A stretch of 12,171 nt of DNA from a virus (IMGVR_UViG_3300029219_000167), one strand, 5' to 3'. Shown: positions 1,341-11,930, numbered from the stretch's first letter. A program made the numbers and translations. The notes: generated by a model not told the origin, from the sequence alone.

Positions 1341-1656
1341 TATAACAAACTTACTTTTTTATCATTTTTCCACTTTAACAACATTTTGCTCCACTTTTCC
1401 ACGACCAAACAAATTAAAATCTGGTTAAAATAACACGCAACACTATTCTTCTTCCTTGAGTCTGCCCGGAACTCGAAAAACAAACCGAGTTAAAGCCATT
1501 TTTCACAAAATCGATTTTGGGTCTCACCAAAATTACGGGGTTGCATACGCATTCGTTTATTTTCGAACGTGTACATACAAATATGCACAAAAATAATCAA
1601 AATTATTTTCTGAGATGCATTATGATATGAACACCAATTTCGTATAGAGTCTCACT

Positions 1657-2247
1657 ATGTCTCGAATTTTTGCTTACTGTCGGATATCAACGCTGGATCA
1701 GACCACCGAAAATCAACGCCGGGAAATCGAAAGTGCAGGTTTTAAAATCAAACCTCAGCAAATAATCGAAGAACACATTAGCGGCTCAGCAGCAACCAGT
1801 GAGCGTCCTGGTTTTAACCGGTTGCTTGCTCGCCTGAAATGTGGTGATCAATTGATTGTGACAAAACTGGATCGCCTTGGTTGTAATGCAATGGATATCA
1901 GGAAAACAGTGGAACAACTGACCGAAACAGGTATCAGAGTGCATTGCTTAGCATTGGGGGGCATTGACCTGACCAGTCCAACAGGAAAAATGATGATGCA
2001 CGTAATTTCAGCAGTCGCTGAATTTGAACGAGACCTTTTACTTGAACGCACTCATTCCGGGATAGTAAGAGCCCGCGGCGCAGGGAAACGTTTTGGTCGA
2101 CCACCTGTGTTAAATGAAGAACAGAAACAGGTGGTATTCGAACGAATTAAGTCAGGTGTAAGTATAAGTGCCATTGCCCGGGAATTCAAAACCTCGCGGC
2201 AAACCATTTTAAGAGCCAAAGCAAAACTTCAGACACCTGACATATAA
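1657..2247 (+). CDS. pinQ: Serine recombinase (resolvase/invertase family, PinQ/PinR-like), 196 aa
   Basis: N-terminal catalytic motif ...YCRISTLDQ... (nucleophilic Ser), resolvase core ([23 protein letters not shown]) and C-terminal HTH ([22 protein letters not shown]). Convergent with tfa; 97-bp gap to the tfa stop. Confidence 0.92.
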
Positions 2248-2344
2248 AAAATAATCTCGGTGTGAGATGCTTTACGTCTTCCAAGCCCCCTTCCTTGCCG
2301 TAAATGGAAAGATACATCTAATTATAGAATTTATATGTTTTACC

Positions 2345-2920
2345 CTACGGCAGTGCTGGCCATTCAATATCCTGTGCAGTTGATGTATCAACACGGTTCA
2401 GCAACACCCGATACTTTTTCCAGGCTTCCAGCAATGAGGTTTCTTCCTCCGTTGCGATTTCCAGATCTACAGCATCCTGAAGTGGCGCTATATGCTCACT
2501 GGCTACCTGCATCAGGCTGTTTTTTGTTTCTTCCGCCTCCCGGATCCGGAACAGTTTTTCTGCTTCCGTATCCTTCACCCAGACTGTACCGTTCCACTTC
2601 TGAAACTCCCCTTCCGGCGATAACCAGGTAACATTTTCCGGTAACGGACCGAGTTCAGAAATAAATAACGCGTCGCCGGAAGCCACGTCATAAACCATTT
2701 TACCCCGATGATCTTCAACGAGATGCCACGATGACTCATCACTGTTGAAAACAGCCACGAAGCCAGCCGGAATATCTGGCGGTGCAATATCGGTACTGTT
2801 TGCTGGCAGACCTGTATGAGGCGGAATATATGCATCACCTTCACCAATAAATTCATTAGTTCCGGCCAGCAGATTATAAATTTTTATGGTCCGTGGTTGT
2901 TCACTCATTCTGAATGCCAT
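2345..2920 (-). CDS. tfaQ: Tail fibre assembly protein (Tfa chaperone), 191 aa
   Basis: 191-aa ORF directly downstream of stf, as in lambda stf-tfa. Its ATG (2920..2918) shares one nucleotide with the stf TAA stop (TAATG overlap), suggesting translational coupling. Sequence consistent with TfaR/TfaQ of K-12 from memory. Confidence 0.88.
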
Positions 2921-5900
2921 TATGCAAGCCTCACAATATAGTTAAATGCGATGTTTTTGACGGTGTTTTCCGCGTTACCAGCAGCGTTAACGGTGATGGT
3001 GTGTCCATGTGAACCAATCGCAACGGAGTGCGTATGAGCACCAATACCCACAGTATGTGCGTGTGCACCTGCGCTTGCAGCAGTACCCGATACAGAGTGC
3101 GTATGAGCGCCTGCAGAAGAAGTGTTAACACTGTATTTAGAATAATCAGATGCTCCACTTCCCGGAGCACCACTGGAACCACCTGAAACAAATGTCATCG
3201 AATGGGTATGTGCACCGGCTGAAGCAGCCGTACCGCTAACACTATGGGTATGCGCCCCGGTGTTATTCGTGGATTTAGTGCCGTAATCAAACGACGATGT
3301 GGTTTTCGTCCCCAAATCCGTACTGGATGCGCTGGCGCTGTGGGTATGCGATTTAATGCCGTCCTGTTCCTGAGACAATACGGCCCGACCACTGGCAGGT
3401 TTGCCCTTAATCGTCCAGCCACGCATATCAGGGATCACGCCTGACGGATAAGCGGCTGCAAGTTTCGGGTAAGCAGATTTGTCAAAAGTCTGCCCCTGCA
3501 TCAGGGCATAACCAGACGGAACGGTATCTGATGGCCACGGGATTGGTGCGCCGACTGGGTAGCTTTCTGGTGGAAGATTTTTCGAGGTATAAACTTCTGC
3601 CCAGTCTTCCTCAAAACCATAACCGTCTCTTGAAGAACGGTAGAACAGACCACCATTTCTGTAATGCGCCTTCATCTGCAAGGTCCGGCAACTTCCGACT
3701 CCGGTATAGAAGTTAACCAGAATATAGCTGTCGCCAGAGCGGGTGACATTGTAAGCACCTGATTCGGCATTCCAGGGAACGCCACCATCCGCATCGGCAT
3801 ATGTATCCGTTGCCCTTCTGGCAAAAGCAGCCACATGCGCGGCGGTTAAAGTAATATCTCTGGAACCATCAAACTCAACACCAGAAACCAGTCTTGGCGT
3901 TTGCAGCTTTGTTGCTGTTAATGCATTACCGTTCAGACTTGCGGACAGTTTGGTTCCAATAACCAGTTCGCCGGTTGCGTTATAAATAGCAAACGGTCTT
4001 AATGTATTCCAGCCACCATAAACATCACCTTGATTGGTAAGCAGCAGGTAAGTTTTAGCGCCATCATTACGCCATAATGCACCATACTCCCCACCTATCA
4101 TTCGAATCTGATTACCACCACGCGCTACAATTTCGTCTGTGGCAAAAAGTTTTTTGCACGACAAATTATCGTTAACGATTAACGAATGAGACTCATAAAA
4201 ACCACGCCCACTCTTAAAATCAAGGATAACGTCCGCCGCGATACATTCAGTCGCTGGATTTGTTGCCCCAAACTTATAGGTCGTATCATTAACAACGAGA
4301 TCAGCACCAGGTGCGGATATTGACAGGCCATCTTCGATAAACGCAAAAACAGGGAAAGCAGCGCCATCAACATAGAACACAGAGCGCAAATCATCGCCCT
4401 TATTACTCATCATTATTGAGTGGATGGCTCGTTCATTGTTTTGATATTGCCAGAACATTCCATAAGCATAACGCCCCCTGTCAGTCCAGCCACCAGGCAT
4501 AACAAATCCGTTAAACTCGCAGTTATTCATCGGATCGCCTGCGGTTCGCGTTGCCGTGGTGATAATGACCCTTGATGCCAGTTCGCTTACTGAGCCAGCA
4601 GAACGCATAACAACAACAGGGTAATATTTTCCAGATGTTGCACCTGCAGGAGCGTTAACCCGCACATAACGCATACCACGCTTATCAGCAAAGTCTGTTT
4701 TACTGACCGCGTTAATGTTGTTCAGGAAGCGTCCCTTATCGGGTATATCAGCGCCGTTCTGGTCTTTCTGCAGACGTTTCTCTGCATTGTCATAGGCTGA
4801 TTTTACTGCCTTTGGCGTTGCCGCCAGCGTTTCAGACGTACTGTTGGTCGCACTGCTGAGCTGTACTATCCCCTTTTTCGTCGTGCTCGCATCCTCAAGC
4901 GCCACGGCGGATGCAATATCCTCTGCCCGTTTTGCCGCTGTCTCGGCGCGCGTTGCCGCGGATTCCGCCGTACTTTTGCTCTGTGCTGCCGCCGTCGCAC
5001 TGCCAGCTGCCTCTGTCGCCTTCGTGGATGCTGTCGTGGCGCTGCCCTTCGCTGCTGACGCCTGTCTGGTCGCCTCATCTTTTGAAGCAGACGCCGATGA
5101 TGCCGATGACGCCGCCGAACTGGCTGACGATGCGGCAGCCGTTTTTGAGGATTCTGCGCTGGTTTCCGACGCTTTCGCGTTCGTTTCGGATGTCTTCGCT
5201 GCGGAAGCAGAACTCGCTGCTGCGCTGGCCTGTTCAGTGGCTTCGCCAGCCTTCGTTGTGGCTGTTGAAGCGGATGATGCGGCGCTTTCTGCCGATTTTC
5301 CGGCGGCGGTGGCACTGGCTGAGGCCTGCCCGGCACTTGTTGACGCGGCGCTGGCAGATGATGCAGCCGCTGTTTTTGAGCCTGCCGCAGCTGAGGCGCT
5401 CTGTCCCGCTGCCGTCTCAGAAGACTTAGCGTTCGTCTCGGACGTTTTTGCCGCCTTCGCGGAATTTCCTGCCGCCGTTGCCGAGGAAGTTGCGCTACTG
5501 GCGCTCGAGGATGCGTTCGTTTCTGATGATTTCGCTGCCTCTTTTGAGGCCGCCGCATCCCGGGCTGAGGTGGCAGCTTCTGACGCTTTCGTGGTCGCGG
5601 TGGATGCAGAAGTGGCTGCTGATTGTTGTGACGCTGCGGCATTCGTTTCTGACGTTTTCGCGGCACTGGCACTGGTAGCTGCCGCGCTTTTTGAGGACTC
5701 TGCAGCAGCAGCACTTTTCGATGCTTCACTGACCTTTGTTGATGCCGTTCCTGCGCTGGAAGACGCTGACTGAGCCGACGACGCGGCCTGTCCGGCTGAC
5801 GTGCTGGCTGCGCGTGCTGAGCCTGCAGCATCAGTCGCATGGGTTGCCGCCTCACGGGCTGATGTGCCGGCATCGCCGGCTGACTTCTTCGCGGCTGCCG

Positions 5901-6276
5901 TGTTCTGTGCCACCGCGGACGCGTTACGCGCCACCTCTTCCACCATCAGCTCAAAACGGCGCAGTGCCTCTGGCCGGGCATCATCCTCCGTCATGGCACC
6001 GAGAAAATCATTCAGCGTACCGGGTCGGGAGTCTTCATACACGGTGATGGTCCCGGCATGTGACGGCGGGAATCCTTCCACCAACAGAATAACGCTGTAC
6101 TGACCGTACTCAACGTCCATGCTGTAACGCCCGGCTTCATCCGGATTTTCTGAGGCCACCGTGTTCACCACCACCGTGGTGCTGTTACGTTTTGCTTTCA
6201 GCTGGATTGTGCAGTTCTGTACCGGTTTTCCTGTGCCGTCTTTCAGTACACCTGAAATCTTTACTGCCATATTCAC
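2920..6276 (-). CDS. stfQ: Side tail fibre protein (Stf, lambda-Stf/StfR-like), about 1116-1118 aa
   Basis: N-terminus (MN)[20 protein letters not shown]... matches lambda Stf; long Ala/Ser/Thr-rich periodic region (repeated AAKTSETNA units); C-terminal HxH repeats (GAHTHS x3, GAHAHT, SHGHT) and ...[18 protein letters not shown] end, as in lambda Stf. The ORF track uses GTG 6276; the lambda-like ATG is at 6270 (MAVKIS...). Preceded by GGGG/GTG purine-rich RBS. Confidence 0.9.
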
Positions 6277-7001: not shown

Positions 7002-9458
7002 TCAGCTGATACTGATGCCTGCGGTGGCTTTCTTCATCACCACAACCAGCAAATCGCTGATACTTGCTGTGGGATACCAGTCATTTACCAGCCATGCTGA
7101 CACCGAAAACTCCAGCGTCATGTGGCCGTGACCAGCTGGCATATCAATAACACCACTGTAAATCAGCGTATTATCCAGCGCGGTACGGTTATAAATTTCA
7201 GCACCATTTTTCTTCACTATCAGGCGGCATGAGGAGTAAATATCAGTATGCTCTCTCTCATGTTTAGCACCGCTGAATGCCACCGCCGGAATAACAATCT
7301 GCCGGTCAAACGGCTGATCGTCATAAATCCTGACGGTAATGGTCCCTGATGGCCACCGCTCCGGTGCCCGGGAGTCCCGCGGGAAAGCCTTACCCACTGT
7401 TTTGACAATATCGCCTTCAATCTGGTTGGCTGACAGTTTCCCTTTAATCTGACAGTTTTCATTTATCGTAACGTTGTTGAGCGTCCCGGCGTTCGCATTC
7501 ACACTGCCACTGATATCTGCATTTTTAGCGGTCAGCTTTCCGTCCGGTGTCAGGGAAAATGCAGGAGGATTACCGCCGCTGGTAATGGTGGGAGCCGTCA
7601 GATATTTCAGGAACACTTCATTCATGAATATCTGATCACCCTGACCAACAAACATCGGTTTTGTGTTGCCATTTGCAGGATTAATCATCGCAATCCTGTC
7701 TGCCGCCAGCAGCACCTGACTCTGCATGCCGTCGGGGGTGTTCTCAATACCGGCACCGATACCCGCAATATAAAGGCGTCCGTCCTGCATCTGCTGCAGC
7801 TTCACAGCCCACATGCTGTTCAGATTATTATTTGTATCAACCTGAACCTTCTGTATCTGCTGGATCGCTGCACTCTGGTCTTCCAGTTTCTTATTGACGG
7901 TCTGTGTGATTTCATTGCTGACATCCGTAATGGATGTCCTGATTTCAGCCAGGTCAGGCGCAAGCTGACCGTTATCAATCTGCGTCCACAGCTCCTGAGC
8001 CAGATGGGTTTTCCCTATCTCGCCTTTGAAAAAATCCAGATAGCCGGATGCGTCATCACTCGGCTGACCAACAGCCTCCACGAATGCCGATTTGCCAACG
8101 GTGTTCACACTGCGAACGTAAAAATAATAATTATGGCCCGGCCTGATATTGATACTGGCGGCTATCCAGTACAGCGCCGTGCCAAGATAGCGTGCTGTGG
8201 TTTCAACCTGCCTGATATCCGCAATCCGCTTTTCCGAGAACCAGAACTCAAACTGTACCGTCGGATCATAAACCGCAAGATGCGGCGTGGCGGTTATCTG
8301 AAAATAGCCCGGCGTCAGCTCAATCCGCGACGGCGCTGCCGGTGCGGCAATCCGGAACGATACCGACGCCGGATCGCCCTGCTGCCCCCACGCATTTACC
8401 GCCCGGACTGTCAGCCTGTAGTTCCCCAGAGCCAGTTGTGTGAAGCGGTAAGTGGTTTCCGTCGTCCGGGCCGTGCTGACCAGCCGCTCACTGCCGTCAT
8501 CCGCTGCCACGGTCAGGCGAAGCAGGAAGCTCACGCCCTTCACCACCTTCGGCGTGTCCCAGCGGGCCAGCACCTGGTATTCCCCGCTGTCTGCAGTGAC
8601 TTCTGCGGTCAGGTGCTGCACCGCTGGCGGCGTGACACCGTTCACCGTGCCACTCTGTTCGCCGTCAAAGTGCGCCCCGTTATCCACGATGACCTCTTTT
8701 TCCGGCACATGCTGCACGGCGGTGATGGCATACGTGCCGTCGTCGTTCTCACGGATACTCACGCAGCGGAACAGTCGCTGGCGCAGCCTCGGCAGCTTCA
8801 GCCCCCATACGCTGTATTCAGCAACACCGTCAGGAACACGGCTCACTTTCACCTTCACGCCGTCGGTGACGGACTGAACCTCCACGCTGACCGGATTGCC
8901 ACTTCCGTCAACCAGGCTTATCAGCGTGGTACCGGAGGATGGCAGCCAGGATATCAGTTCATCCAGCGCGGCTGCTTTGTTCATGGCTTTGATGATATCC
9001 CGTTTCAGGAAATCAACATGTCGGTTTTCCAGTTCCGGAAAACGCCGCTGCACCGACAGGGGGATCCCGTCGAGAATACTGGCAATTTCACCTGCGATCC
9101 GCGACAGCACGAAAGTACAGAATGCGGTTTCCACCACTTCAGCGGAGTCTCTGGCATTCTTCAGTTCCTGTGCGTCGGCCTGCGCACGCGTAAGTCGATG
9201 GCGTTCGTACTCAATAGTCCCTGGCTGGAGATCTGCCTCGCTGGCCTGCCGCAGTTCTTCAACTTCCCGGCGCAGCTTTTCGTTCTCAATTTCAGCATCC
9301 CTTTCGGCATACCATCTTATAACGGCGGCAGAGTCATAAAGCACCTCATTACCCTTGCCACCGCCTCGCAGAACGGGCATTCCCTGTTCCTGCCAGTTCT
9401 GAATGGTACGGATACTCGCACCGAAAATGTCAGCCAGCTGCTTTTTGTTGACTTCCAT
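7002..9458 (-). CDS. Chimeric deletion-fusion ORF, 818 aa: N-terminal ~169 aa of terminase small subunit Nu1 (nohQ-like) fused in frame to C-terminal ~650 aa of tail-tip protein J
   Basis: Residues 1-169 ([46 protein letters not shown]...[13 protein letters not shown]) are near-identical to lambda Nu1 as I recall it, including the winged-HTH DNA-binding domain. From about plus position 8951 the frame continues as ...[49 protein letters not shown]... matching the lambda J C-terminal half through ...[16 protein letters not shown]. Junction is in frame, so roughly 19 kb of head and tail genes (Nu1 3' end, A through I, J 5' half) are absent. Confidence 0.85.
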
Positions 9459-9480: not shown

Positions 9481-9665
9481 AGAGAAAGGAAACGACAGAG
9501 GCCCAAAAGCTCGTTTTCAGCACCTGTCGTTTCCTTTCTTTTCAGGGGGTATTTTAAATAAAAACATTAAGTTACAACGAAGAAGAACGGAAACGCCTTA
9601 AACCGGAAAATTTTCATAAATAGCGAAAACCCGCGAGGTCGCCGCCCCGTAACCTGTCGGATCGC
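9481..9665 (-). other. Lambda-type cos site: cosB (R1, R2, R3 terminase-binding repeats with AT-rich IHF-site region), cosN and cosQ
   Basis: Reverse complement of 9636-9647 is GGGCGGCGACCT, the lambda 12-nt cohesive end. R-site-like repeats at 9481-9498 (AGAGAAAGGAAACGACAG), 9524-9538 (CTGTCGTTTCCTTTC, inverted) and 9580-9598 (GAAGAAGAACGGAAACGCC). 9648-9663 reverse-complements to GATCCGACAGGTTACG, the lambda right-end (cosQ-side) sequence. Spacing to the Nu1 start matches lambda. Confidence 0.85.
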
Positions 9666-11345: not shown

Positions 11346-11546
11346 TTTCACTTTTTTAAATCCAACGACAGACGGCTGGCATTTAAGTATTGTGAAATAT
11401 TATCAAATGTAATCATCATTGATTTACAAAAGATACATTTTGCCCCGAAAGGATTCATGTCAGAAACATCAAAAGATGATGTTCTATACTGGGAACCATG
11501 ACAACACGGGCATCTAAAGTGAATATGGTTTGTAATATTGTCTACC

Positions 11547-11759
11547 TCAAAGCGCCACTACATGAACAGCGGCAGGACCTTTAGGTCCGTTCTCAATACC
11601 AAATTCAACTTCCTGATTCTCAGTTAATGTTTTGAAATCGTTGCTCTGAATTGCTGAGAAATGGACAAACACATCTTTGCTGCCATCTTTCGGCGTGATG
11701 AAACCAAAACCTTTTTCAGGGTTAAACCATTTTACTAAACCAGTCATTTTGTTAGACAT
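11547..11759 (-). CDS. cspI: Cold-shock protein CspI (CspA family, S1-like cold-shock domain), 70 aa
   Basis: [70 protein letters not shown] carries the RNP1 (KGFGFI) and RNP2 (VFVHF) motifs; AAGG Shine-Dalgarno about 7 nt upstream of ATG 11759. Confidence 0.92.
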
Positions 11760-11930
11760 AATTATTACCTTTTGAAGAAATTAGCCCTTGGGCAGAATGG
11801 TCCGAAAAAAAATATCAGAGAGAAAAACCAACAAGGAAATCTCAAGAGGTACAAATAATAAAATTATAACAATGACTGCTTCAGATAAATTTGTAACAAA
11901 CCAGAACACCATTAACGCATGATTAACCAC
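11760..11930 (-). promoter_or_regulatory. Probable long AT-rich 5' UTR and promoter region of cspI (cold-shock-type leader)
   Basis: CspA-family genes typically have leaders of about 160 nt; about 335 bp of AT-rich non-coding DNA separates the cspI ATG from the IS1 end. Promoter and cold-box positions not determined; boundaries approximate. Confidence 0.35.

What the first reader, a model, noticed from the sequence alone, without database searches (positions are those of the whole stretch)
1341..2344. Orphan serine recombinase with no invertible tail-fibre cassette
In Mu (gin), P1 (cin) and e14 (pin) the invertase sits beside an invertible segment carrying two alternative tail-fibre C-termini and tfa genes, flanked by inverted crossover sites. 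Here only one stf-tfa set exists, pin is convergent with tfa with just 97 bp between stops, and I found no convincing 26-bp gix/hix-like inverted repeat upstream of pin or in stf. The protein is also a divergent family member, not Gin/Hin-like at the N-terminus. Its substrate is therefore unknown; it may act in trans or on undefined sites.
Basis: partly seen in the sequence, partly recalled or inferred. Interest (0 to 1): 0.5.

Follow-up and report, generated by a model that had tools for sequence, protein, structure and literature searches.

The report
Relic transposon resolvase beside tail-fibre genes
The "orphan invertase" is pinQ of the E. coli Qin prophage, a known gene that is really the left-over resolvase end of a Tn3-family transposon, with a worn-out recombination site, a cysteine replacing a catalytic arginine and a remnant terminal repeat, so it never had a tail-fibre cassette of its own.

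Summary
pinQ (1657-2247, +) faces tfaQ with 97 bp between the stop codons. There is one stf-tfa set, and no gix/hix/pix-like site or convincing inverted repeat anywhere in the window.

The interpretation needs reframing. The window is the ydfJ-proximal end of the E. coli Qin prophage, and pinQ is an annotated gene. PinQ is only 35-39% identical to PinE, Gin and Hin, but 76-84% identical to TnpR resolvases of Tn3-family transposons. One such element, on a plasmid, is intact: 38-bp terminal repeats, a 5-bp target duplication, a Tn3-type transposase and a three-part res site.

The window keeps a decayed copy of that res (1539-1652) and of the right terminal repeat (2256-2290). There is no transposase. 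All phage-borne PinQ/PinR-type copies examined, apart from rare alleles repaired by recombination with transposon copies, have Cys76 where 74 of 74 other family loci, and Gin, Hin, PinE and gamma-delta resolvase, have the arginine equivalent to resolvase R71. Mutating that arginine in Tn3 resolvase abolishes recombination. Purifying selection is about four-fold relaxed.

The best reading is a fossil resolvase module with no substrate in cis and probably little catalytic activity. A 2025 paper reports that over-produced PinQ inverts the e14 P segment in trans. Its own data show inversion depends on PinE. The finding is already known in substance and of modest interest.

The parts
1539..1652 (+). 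Decayed res site (resolvase binding and crossover region) directly upstream of pinQ. It is colinear with the three-part res of the transposon-borne relatives.
   Evidence: A profile HMM built from the res regions of 66 family loci with Arg76 matches here at 31.1 bits, E 5.7e-10. The training loci score 64.7-114.2 bits, median 100.8. Pairwise alignment to plasmid locus L005 supports the same homology.
1544..1569 (+). Site I relic (CATACGCAT-tcgtttat-TTTCGAACG). The family consensus is TGTMCGAAA-N8-TTTCGKACA, and the crossover would lie at its centre.
   Evidence: 6 of 18 specified positions are mismatched. 64 of 66 Arg76-clade loci have 0-3 mismatches, with a maximum of 5. The less decayed variant in L011 (CATCCGAAT...) shows that the whole site is homologous.
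1584..1615 (+). Site II relic (TGCACAAAA-N14-TTTCTGAGA).
   Evidence: 4 of 18 positions are mismatched, against 0-3 in all 66 Arg76-clade loci. 0.2% of shuffles do as well.
1626..1646 (+). Site III relic (TATGAACA-ccaa-TTTCGTATA). A -10-like TATGAT lies just before it at 1621-1626.
   Evidence: Alignment to the family consensus TTATAATTCGTACAtccaTTTCGGACG. The half-site hit at 1638-1646 appears.
1657..2247 (+). pinQ, a small serine recombinase of 196 aa. It is a TnpR-type resolvase homologue.
   Evidence: Pfam Resolvase 3.6e-36 and HTH_7 3.8e-11. RefSeq names it pinQ. It is 84% identical to the TnpR of an intact Tn3-family element.
1687..1689 (+). Codon for Ser11, the catalytic nucleophile. 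It is intact.
   Evidence: Alignments with Gin, Hin, PinE and gamma-delta resolvase.
1882..1884 (+). Codon 76, TGT (Cys), where the family has CGT (Arg). This is the arginine equivalent to R71 of gamma-delta/Tn3 resolvase.
   Evidence: Searches give the alignment. Arg occurs in 115 of 121 aligned sequences (120 cluster representatives plus the window) and in 74 of 74 non-phage loci. Tn3 resolvase mutated at R71 shows no recombination and about 10^3-fold slower cleavage (PMC2794168).
2256..2290 (-). Relic of the 38-bp right terminal inverted repeat of the transposon, starting 8 bp after the pinQ stop codon.
   Evidence: 27 of 38 aligned columns are identical to the L005 repeat GGGGTCCGCTTGGAAAACGGAAAATATCCCACGCTAAG, with a 3-nt gap. 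0 of 2000 shuffles reach this score. Megablast homology to the plasmid transposons stops at about 2286.
2291..2357 (.). Phage DNA between the repeat relic and the body of tfaQ. Together with the last few tfaQ codons it travels with the pin module.
   Evidence: tfa homologues in prophages without pin lose similarity at window 2354-2358.

Best explanation
pinQ is the fossil resolvase end of a Tn3-family (Tn5403-like) transposon that became embedded beside tfa in the accessory (b-region-like) end of Rac/Qin-type lambdoid phages. What survives is a decayed res site, the tnpR gene and a decayed right terminal repeat. The transposase half is gone. In its native setting this enzyme binds three dyad sub-sites between tnpA and tnpR (half-site TGT[C/A]CGAAA). 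It resolves cointegrates by crossover at site I between two directly repeated res copies, and it probably represses its own promoter, which lies inside res (inferred from Tn3/gamma-delta biology). It was never the invertase of a tail-fibre cassette, which is why no second stf-tfa set or crossover sites exist here. In the phage-borne lineage the enzyme carries Cys in place of a conserved catalytic arginine, its cognate res is degraded, and purifying selection is about four-fold relaxed. Most likely it has no substrate in cis and little or no strand-exchange activity. Any remaining role would be DNA binding or an indirect effect in trans. Shown: the homology, the relics, the substitution and the relaxed constraint. 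Inferred: the loss of activity and any residual role.
For: Identity of the locus: Qin prophage end, pinQ annotated. PinQ is 35-39% identical to PinE/Gin/Hin and 32% to gamma-delta resolvase, but 76-84% identical to plasmid and chromosomal proteins. Plasmid locus L005 is an intact 3,814-bp element. It has perfect 38-bp inverted repeats, a TTTTA target duplication on both sides, a TnpA with DDE_Tnp_Tn3 + DUF4158 and a tnpR 84% identical to PinQ. The relatives at 69-84% identity in L005, L014-L017, L019, L020, L029 and L055 all have this transposase, divergently transcribed, about 160 bp upstream. Across the 73 loci in that comparison a conserved three-part res lies directly upstream of the gene. 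The window keeps homologous but degraded res and terminal-repeat sequences. The plasmid homology stops at the repeat end. Residue 76 is Cys in the window, K-12 PinQ, phage Turner and a 16%-divergent allele at the same site. It is Arg in 74 of 74 other loci. Tn3 resolvase mutated at R71 does not recombine. dN/dS inside the Cys76 lineage is 0.38, against a median of 0.10 (maximum 0.17, 22 pairs) in the Arg76 clade. That value is significantly above 0.10 (p 6e-12) and below 1 (p 6e-4). Recent alleles differ by 3:0, 4:0 and 4:1 non-synonymous to synonymous changes. The window holds no perfect family half-site, and hits with one mismatch are at chance level (6 found, 5.5 expected). It holds no invertase-type site. 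The same pin/tfa layout occurs in complete phage genomes. In the published work, deleting pinE drops P-segment inversion to 1.5% although pinQ and pinR are present, while deleting pinQ changes it only from 30% to 22%.
Against: Kirigo et al. (PMC12529663) report that over-producing PinQ raises e14 P-segment inversion from about 30% to 88% and protects against phage T2. They also report that a pinQ deletion sensitises cells. This suggests the protein does something. dN/dS of 0.38 is below 1, and the ORF is intact across about 10% nucleotide divergence, so some constraint persists. The effect of Arg-to-Cys is inferred from Tn3 resolvase and was not measured in PinQ. R71 mutants of Tn3 resolvase are 'not inert'. 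The left boundary of the relic is simply where similarity ends next to site I. No empty site was found to prove the insertion history. More distant family members (62-75% identity) mostly lack a detectable adjacent transposase, so the family as a whole is a res/resolvase module rather than exclusively transposon-borne.
Confidence: 0.7

Rival explanations
1. PinQ is an active DNA invertase that works in trans. It recognises the pix sites of the e14 prophage and inverts the 1.8-kb P segment, creating chimeric tail-fibre proteins that block adsorption of phage T2 (Kirigo et al. 2025).
For: Published experiments: over-production gives 88% inverted cells, T2 survivors carry the inversion, there is no protection without e14, stfP or stfE, and a pinQ deletion sensitises cells. 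Cross-action of invertases on foreign sites is known among Gin, Hin, Cin, Pin and Fin (and general knowledge).
Against: All inversion tests used pinE+ cells. A pinE deletion leaves 1.5% inversion despite intact pinQ and pinR. No catalytic mutant and no pinE-deletion/pinQ-plasmid control is listed. A freely reversible inversion should approach about 50%, as PinE over-production does (49%). The 88% seen with PinQ points to selection or bias rather than simple catalysis (inference). PinQ shares only 35-39% identity with the interchangeable invertases, and its helix-turn-helix matches a family whose half-site is TGTMCGAAA, unlike pix (TTCTCCCAAACC...). Cys76 replaces a catalytic arginine. At least 1,368 of the 2,734 complete genomes with pinQ/R lack a pinE-type gene at 80% or more coverage.
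Confidence: 0.2
2. PinQ is still a working resolvase on its own degraded res. For example it might resolve phage or prophage multimers, or recombine between the Rac and Qin copies.
For: The res relic is still colinear and significantly similar to the family profile. The ORF is intact and under some constraint. The helix-turn-helix is nearly identical to that of Arg76 relatives.
Against: Sites I and II are worse than in every one of 66 functional-looking relatives, and the site I centre is changed (3 of 8 positions match). Cys76 is present. The window holds a single res copy. The authors of PMC12529663 found no inversions involving Rac or Qin in database genomes.
Confidence: 0.05
3. PinQ is a Gin/Hin/Cin/Pin-type invertase whose invertible tail-fibre segment was deleted, leaving it orphaned.
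For: Its position next to stf-tfa and its historical name. Gin is the best hit among solved structures (E 2e-30).
Against: Its 5' end faces away from the tail-fibre genes, unlike pinE/pixR. No residual crossover site exists. Its nearest relatives are transposon resolvases with res sites, and the gene is flanked by res and terminal-repeat relics.
Confidence: 0.02

Closest known systems
TnpR resolvase of small cryptic Tn3-family transposons (Tn5403-like; example here: the 3.8-kb element on E. coli plasmid pRM10386-2, locus L005)
   Same: 84% protein identity. There is a homologous res region upstream and a homologous 38-bp terminal repeat directly after the stop codon. The helix-turn-helix is the same. 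In Klebsiella plasmid papers the gene next to the Tn5403 transposase is auto-annotated 'pinR'.
   Different: There is no transposase and no left repeat. The res sub-sites and the right repeat are degraded. Residue 76 is Cys rather than Arg. The location is a lambdoid prophage or phage rather than a plasmid. That the plasmid element is Tn5403 itself was not verified here.
Gamma-delta / Tn3 resolvase
   Same: Same fold and domain order. The catalytic residues Y6, R8, S10, Q14, Q19, R45, D67, R68 and E124 have equivalents. The gene sits next to a three-part res.
   Different: Only 32% identity. The half-site sequence differs. The R71 equivalent is Cys. PinQ has Glu at the D36 position, as does its whole family.
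PinE of e14 and Gin, Hin, Cin (enhancer-dependent DNA invertases)
   Same: Small serine recombinases encoded in or near phage tail-fibre regions. PinQ was named after them.
   Different: 35-39% identity. In e14 the 26-bp pix site lies 55 bp upstream of pinE, and a second inverted copy lies 1.8 kb away inside stfP. Nothing comparable exists here.
PinQ/PinR of E. coli K-12 as described by Kirigo et al. 2025 (NAR, PMC12529663)
   Same: The same gene: 98% identical protein, 3 substitutions (R3Q, H115Q, V159A).
   Different: That paper treats it as an active trans-acting invertase. It does not mention the transposon origin, the res and terminal-repeat relics or Cys76.

Membership tests
Small serine recombinases (resolvase/invertase) | N-terminal Resolvase catalytic domain followed by a C-terminal helix-turn-helix | tested here: met
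   Pfam PF00239 3.6e-36 (residues 4-144) and PF02796 3.8e-11 (147-190). PDB hits to Gin and gamma-delta resolvase.
Small serine recombinases (resolvase/invertase) | Full set of conserved catalytic residues (gamma-delta numbering Y6, R8, S10, D36, R68, R71) | tested here: not met
   Y7, R9, S11 and R73 are present and E39 stands for D36, but Cys76 replaces R71.
Enhancer-dependent DNA invertases (Gin/Hin/Cin/Pin) | Close sequence relationship to the other members | tested here: not met
   39/37/35% identity to PinE/Gin/Hin, barely above the 32% to gamma-delta resolvase, against 76-84% to transposon TnpR proteins.
Enhancer-dependent DNA invertases (Gin/Hin/Cin/Pin) | Two 26-bp crossover sites in inverted orientation, one next to the 5' end of the gene | tested here: not met
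   No match above chance in the window. e14 as a positive control shows both sites.
Enhancer-dependent DNA invertases (Gin/Hin/Cin/Pin) | Invertible segment with alternative tail-fibre C-termini and tfa genes | tested here: not met
   One stf and one tfa only. The same holds in complete phage genomes.
Enhancer-dependent DNA invertases (Gin/Hin/Cin/Pin) | Fis-bound recombinational enhancer inside the 5' part of the gene | not tested
   No reliable sequence test was available.
Tn3-family transposon resolvase module (res-tnpR) | Nearest relatives are tnpR genes of elements with a Tn3-type DDE transposase, 38-bp terminal repeats and 5-bp target duplications | tested here: met
   L005: repeats, TTTTA duplication, DDE_Tnp_Tn3 + DUF4158. 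Nine loci at 69-84% identity have the divergent transposase.
Tn3-family transposon resolvase module (res-tnpR) | Multi-part res site immediately upstream of the gene | tested here: inconclusive
   A homologous, colinear relic is present (31 bits, E 5.7e-10) but scores below all 65 scored comparators (64.7-114.2 bits). Site I has 6 of 18 mismatches and site II has 4 of 18. Homology is met. Function is doubtful.
Tn3-family transposon resolvase module (res-tnpR) | Terminal inverted repeat of the element next to the module | tested here: met
   Relic at 2256-2290, 27 of 38 identical, 0 of 2000 shuffles reach the score.
Tn3-family transposon (complete element) | Transposase gene and a second terminal repeat | tested here: not met
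   No TnpA similarity in the window or in any phage-borne locus. No second repeat above chance.

The most novel reading that the evidence does not exclude
PinQ/PinR are catalytically crippled resolvase fossils that were kept because the protein still binds DNA or pairs with other serine recombinases. On this reading the reported anti-T2 phenotype arises from PinQ biasing or stimulating PinE-catalysed inversion, for example through mixed tetramers, site occupancy or regulation of pinE, and not from PinQ acting as the recombinase. That would be a non-catalytic, regulatory use of a transposon resolvase by a prophage.
Probability: 0.15. Interest if true: 0.6.

Novelty: already known. Interest (0 to 1): 0.3.

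Why it matters
pinQ and pinR sit in about half of all complete E. coli genomes and are routinely labelled 'invertase'. A 2025 paper builds a new class of anti-phage defence on PinQ being an active trans-acting invertase. If the gene is instead a transposon resolvase fossil with a substituted catalytic arginine and a degraded cognate site, three things follow. It explains why no cassette exists here. It corrects the annotation logic, since plasmid transposon resolvases are auto-named 'pinR' for the same reason. And it defines simple controls (a pinE deletion background, S11A and C76R variants) that would decide whether that defence model is right. Beyond this, the locus is an ordinary piece of prophage mosaicism.

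Tried and rejected
1. Crossover sites. I searched for gix/hix/pix-type sites and for any paired inverted repeats around pin, in stf and across the window. Nothing exceeded chance.

2. A palindrome at 1570-1589. TGTACATAC-AA-ATATGCACA looked at first like a crossover site with an AA core. Comparison with relatives showed it is the spacer plus the left half of res site II. The apparent symmetry comes from the self-complementary TGTACA core of the half-site, so I dropped it.

3. A junction at the site I crossover point. The local alignment starts exactly at the right half of site I, which suggested a resolvase-made junction. The less decayed variant L011 and the profile alignment show that the left half-site is also homologous, so I rejected this.

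4. An empty site. I looked for a tfa with the same 3' flank but no pin. Prophages without pin lose similarity already at 2354-2358, so the insertion history cannot be reconstructed this way.

5. A left terminal repeat. The GGGTCTCACC motif at about 1520 looked promising, but the whole-window scan gave no second repeat above shuffle level.

6. The promoter/terminator scan of 1300-2400 was uninformative. Rfam found nothing in 1341-2344.

7. Whether all family members are transposon-borne. They are not. Only the closest relatives are, and most of the 62-75% identity relatives have no detectable transposase within 4 kb.

8. NCBIfam gave only sub-threshold hits (Mpi, XisF), so no named subfamily could be assigned.

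Full report
WHAT THE WINDOW IS

The first 6.4 kb match hundreds of complete E. coli chromosomes at 99.9-100% identity. RefSeq annotates ydfJ (truncated), ynfT, ydfK, pinQ, tfaQ, a prophage tail-fibre gene and lom there. This is the ydfJ-proximal end of the cryptic prophage Qin, as in K-12. In this strain an internal deletion has fused nohA (Nu1) to the C-terminal part of J (7002-9458). No complete genome in the collection has exactly that fusion.

CHECKING THE OBSERVATION

- pinQ is 1657-2247 (+) and tfaQ is 2345-2920 (-), so 97 bp (2248-2344) separate the stop codons.
- There is one stf (2920-6276) and one tfa.
- The core shared by gix, hix, cix and pix sites (AAACCNNGGTTT, up to 2 mismatches) occurs 5 times against 6.8 expected. 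No hit lies near pin or in stf.
- The e14 pix arm has no match with up to 3 mismatches.
- The best inverted repeats in the window are short and imperfect, and none brackets a sensible segment.
- As a positive control, e14 of K-12 shows the canonical layout. TTCTCCCAAACCAACGTTTATGAAAA lies 55 bp upstream of pinE, and an inverted copy lies 1.8 kb away inside stfP.

THE PROTEIN

PinQ has the Resolvase and HTH_7 domains. It is 39, 37, 35 and 32% identical to PinE, Gin, Hin and gamma-delta resolvase (PDB hits). It is no closer to the mutually interchangeable invertases than a generic family member would be.

The catalytic Tyr7, Arg9, Ser11, Gln15, Gln20, Arg50, Asp72, Arg73 and Glu124 are in place. 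Residue 76 is Cys, where Gin, Hin, PinE and gamma-delta resolvase all have Arg (R71 in resolvase numbering). In Tn3 resolvase, both substitutions tested at R71 abolish resolution in vivo and slow strand cleavage about 1000-fold. R71 is ranked among the six most critical residues (PMC2794168).

WHERE THE PROTEIN COMES FROM

A database search returns thousands of relatives at 62-85% identity, many on plasmids.

The closest plasmid copy examined, locus L005 on pRM10386-2, is 84% identical. It lies inside an intact 3,814-bp element with these features:
- perfect 38-bp inverted repeats, GGGGTCCGCTTGGAAAACGGAAAATATCCCACGCTAAG;
- the same 5-bp TTTTA on both outer sides;
- a 914-aa ORF with DDE_Tnp_Tn3 and DUF4158 domains, transcribed divergently;
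- about 160 bp between the two genes.

This is a Tn3-family transposon without passenger genes. Nine relatives at 69-84% identity (L005, L014-L017, L019, L020, L029, L055) have this transposase at the same distance.

Across the 73 upstream regions compared among one-per-species loci, the region directly upstream of the recombinase gene holds a conserved res:
- site I: TGTMCGAAA-N8-TTTCGKACA;
- site II: the same arms with a 14-16 bp spacer;
- a third pair of half-sites around a TATAAT box.

More distant members (62-75% identity) mostly lack a detectable transposase within 4 kb. The family at large is therefore a res/resolvase module, and the branch PinQ belongs to is transposon-borne.

Papers on Klebsiella plasmids show a gene auto-annotated 'pinR' next to the Tn5403 transposase. 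Tn5403 is a passenger-less Tn3-family element. The parent is therefore probably Tn5403-like, though I did not verify the name.

RELICS IN THE WINDOW

Upstream of pinQ, positions 1539-1652 align colinearly with the res profile at 31.1 bits (E 5.7e-10). Every comparator scores 64.7-114.2 bits.
- Site I (1544-1569) has 6 of 18 mismatches and an altered centre.
- Site II (1584-1615) has 4 of 18 mismatches. Both are worse than all 66 comparators.
- Site III (1626-1646) is also degraded.

Downstream, 8 bp after the stop codon, 2256-2290 matches the transposon's right terminal repeat at 27 of 38 positions with a 3-nt gap. None of 2000 shuffles reaches that score. Nucleotide similarity to the plasmid transposons stops at about 2286.

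The window contains no transposase and no second repeat. So 35 of the 97 'intergenic' bases are transposon end. The convergent position next to tfa reflects where a transposon once landed, not a functional link with the tail fibre.

HOW GENERAL THE DERIVED STATE IS

- Cys76 (TGT against CGT) is found in the window, K-12 PinQ, phage Turner and other E. coli and E. ruysiae copies. It is also in a 16%-divergent allele at the same chromosomal site (L006).
- All 74 other family loci have Arg.
- Rare prophage-borne alleles with Arg76 (L087, L088) are patchworks. Their promoter-proximal res and most of the gene match the plasmid transposon, while the distal res and the 3' end match the phage lineage. 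They look like repair by homologous exchange with transposon copies.
- Within the Cys76 lineage dN/dS is 0.38. The Arg76 clade at comparable divergence has a median of 0.10 and a maximum of 0.17 (22 pairs).
- The value 0.38 is significantly above 0.10 (p 6e-12) and below 1 (p 6e-4).
- Near-identical alleles differ by 3:0, 4:0 and 4:1 non-synonymous to synonymous changes.

Constraint is relaxed but not gone.

The same ydfK-pin/tfa-stf-lom-J layout occurs in complete genomes of phages Turner, HannyBb, 2H10, mEp460_ev081, Tritos and others. The orphan state is therefore a property of the module and not a product of decay in this prophage. The module is present at 80% or more coverage in 2,734 of 5,426 complete E. 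coli genomes.

WHAT IS PUBLISHED

Kirigo et al. (NAR 2025, PMC12529663) studied K-12 PinQ, which is 98% identical to this one. They report the following:
- a pinQ deletion sensitises cells to phage T2;
- over-production protects;
- survivors carry an inverted e14 P segment;
- over-production raises the inverted fraction from 30% to 88%.

However, their quantitative table shows 22% inversion in the pinQ deletion and 1.5% in the pinE deletion, which still has pinQ and pinR. All PinQ over-production was done in pinE+ cells. No catalytic mutant is listed.

PinE over-production gives the roughly 50% expected of a reversible switch. The 88% seen with PinQ suggests selection or bias (my inference). 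The helix-turn-helix of PinQ is almost identical to that of relatives whose sites are TGTMCGAAA dyads. The pix sites do not resemble these, and no family half-site lies at them. A pinE-type gene is present at 80% or more coverage in only 1,366 genomes. At least half of the pinQ/R carriers therefore cannot use that partner.

VERDICT

The finding is real but already known in substance: an annotated gene, whose orphan status and trans action are in the literature.

What the analysis adds is the likely reason for the orphan state, a Tn3-family resolvase fossil flanked by its own relics. It also adds a sequence-based caution about its catalytic competence.

I put 0.7 on the fossil reading with little or no activity in cis. 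The origin alone I rate at about 0.9. I put 0.2 on the published trans-invertase model being mechanistically correct, and small probabilities on the other rivals.

Noticed in passing
window 7002-9458 (-): A single 818-aa ORF fuses the Nu1/NohA terminase small subunit (residues 1-164) to the Ig-like and C-terminal receptor-binding domains of tail-tip protein J. A deletion from nu1 to mid-J has removed the head and tail genes. The deletion differs from that of K-12 Qin (nohA next to a truncated stfQ), and no complete genome in the collection has it.
   Followed up: partly
L087 4600-5700 and L088 1-740: Rare prophage-borne pin alleles with Arg76 are mosaics. A patch covering the promoter-proximal res and most of the gene matches plasmid transposon copies, inside otherwise phage-type flanks. 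This points to ongoing homologous exchange between plasmid-borne transposons and the chromosomal relic. One of them (P0006) also has Asp72 changed to Ala.
   Followed up: partly
L006 6400-7800 compared with window 1341-2344: A second pin allele at the same Qin site is 90% identical in the coding region, but 96% identical in the 316 bp upstream and about 90% in the 97 bp downstream. The gene is thus more diverged than its upstream flank. This allele stands for a cluster of 374 database sequences (P0009).
   Followed up: partly
window 2379-2577 (-): Rfam family IS009 (an sRNA candidate originally predicted in K-12) matches at 226 bits, entirely inside the tfaQ coding sequence.
   Followed up: no
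window 11520-11905 (-): A cspA-type thermoregulator leader (Rfam RF01766, 115 bits) overlaps the 5' part of the cspI-like gene (11547-11759) and extends into its upstream leader.
   Followed up: no
window 4844-5873, both strands: The central Ala/Ser/Thr-rich repeat region of stf has 60-62% GC and an AT skew down to -0.46. It carries long antisense and out-of-frame ORFs (309 and 335 aa) that are almost certainly artefacts of the composition.
   Followed up: no
L008, L009, L010: Contigs carrying 98-99% identical pinQ are filed in public metagenome bins named Alistipes, Draconibacterium and Caldithrix. This is most likely E. coli DNA mis-binned. The trematode 'host' quoted in PMC12529663 may have a similar cause.
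   Followed up: no
window 9483-9539: The best hairpin-forming inverted repeat in the window (26-nt arms, 85% complementary, 5-nt loop) lies just upstream of the nohA start.
   Followed up: no
window 2354-2358: tfa genes of prophages that lack pin are 93-96% identical to tfaQ up to this point, and similarity then stops. The last three or four tfaQ codons therefore belong to the pin-linked module, a typical mosaic joint.
   Followed up: partly
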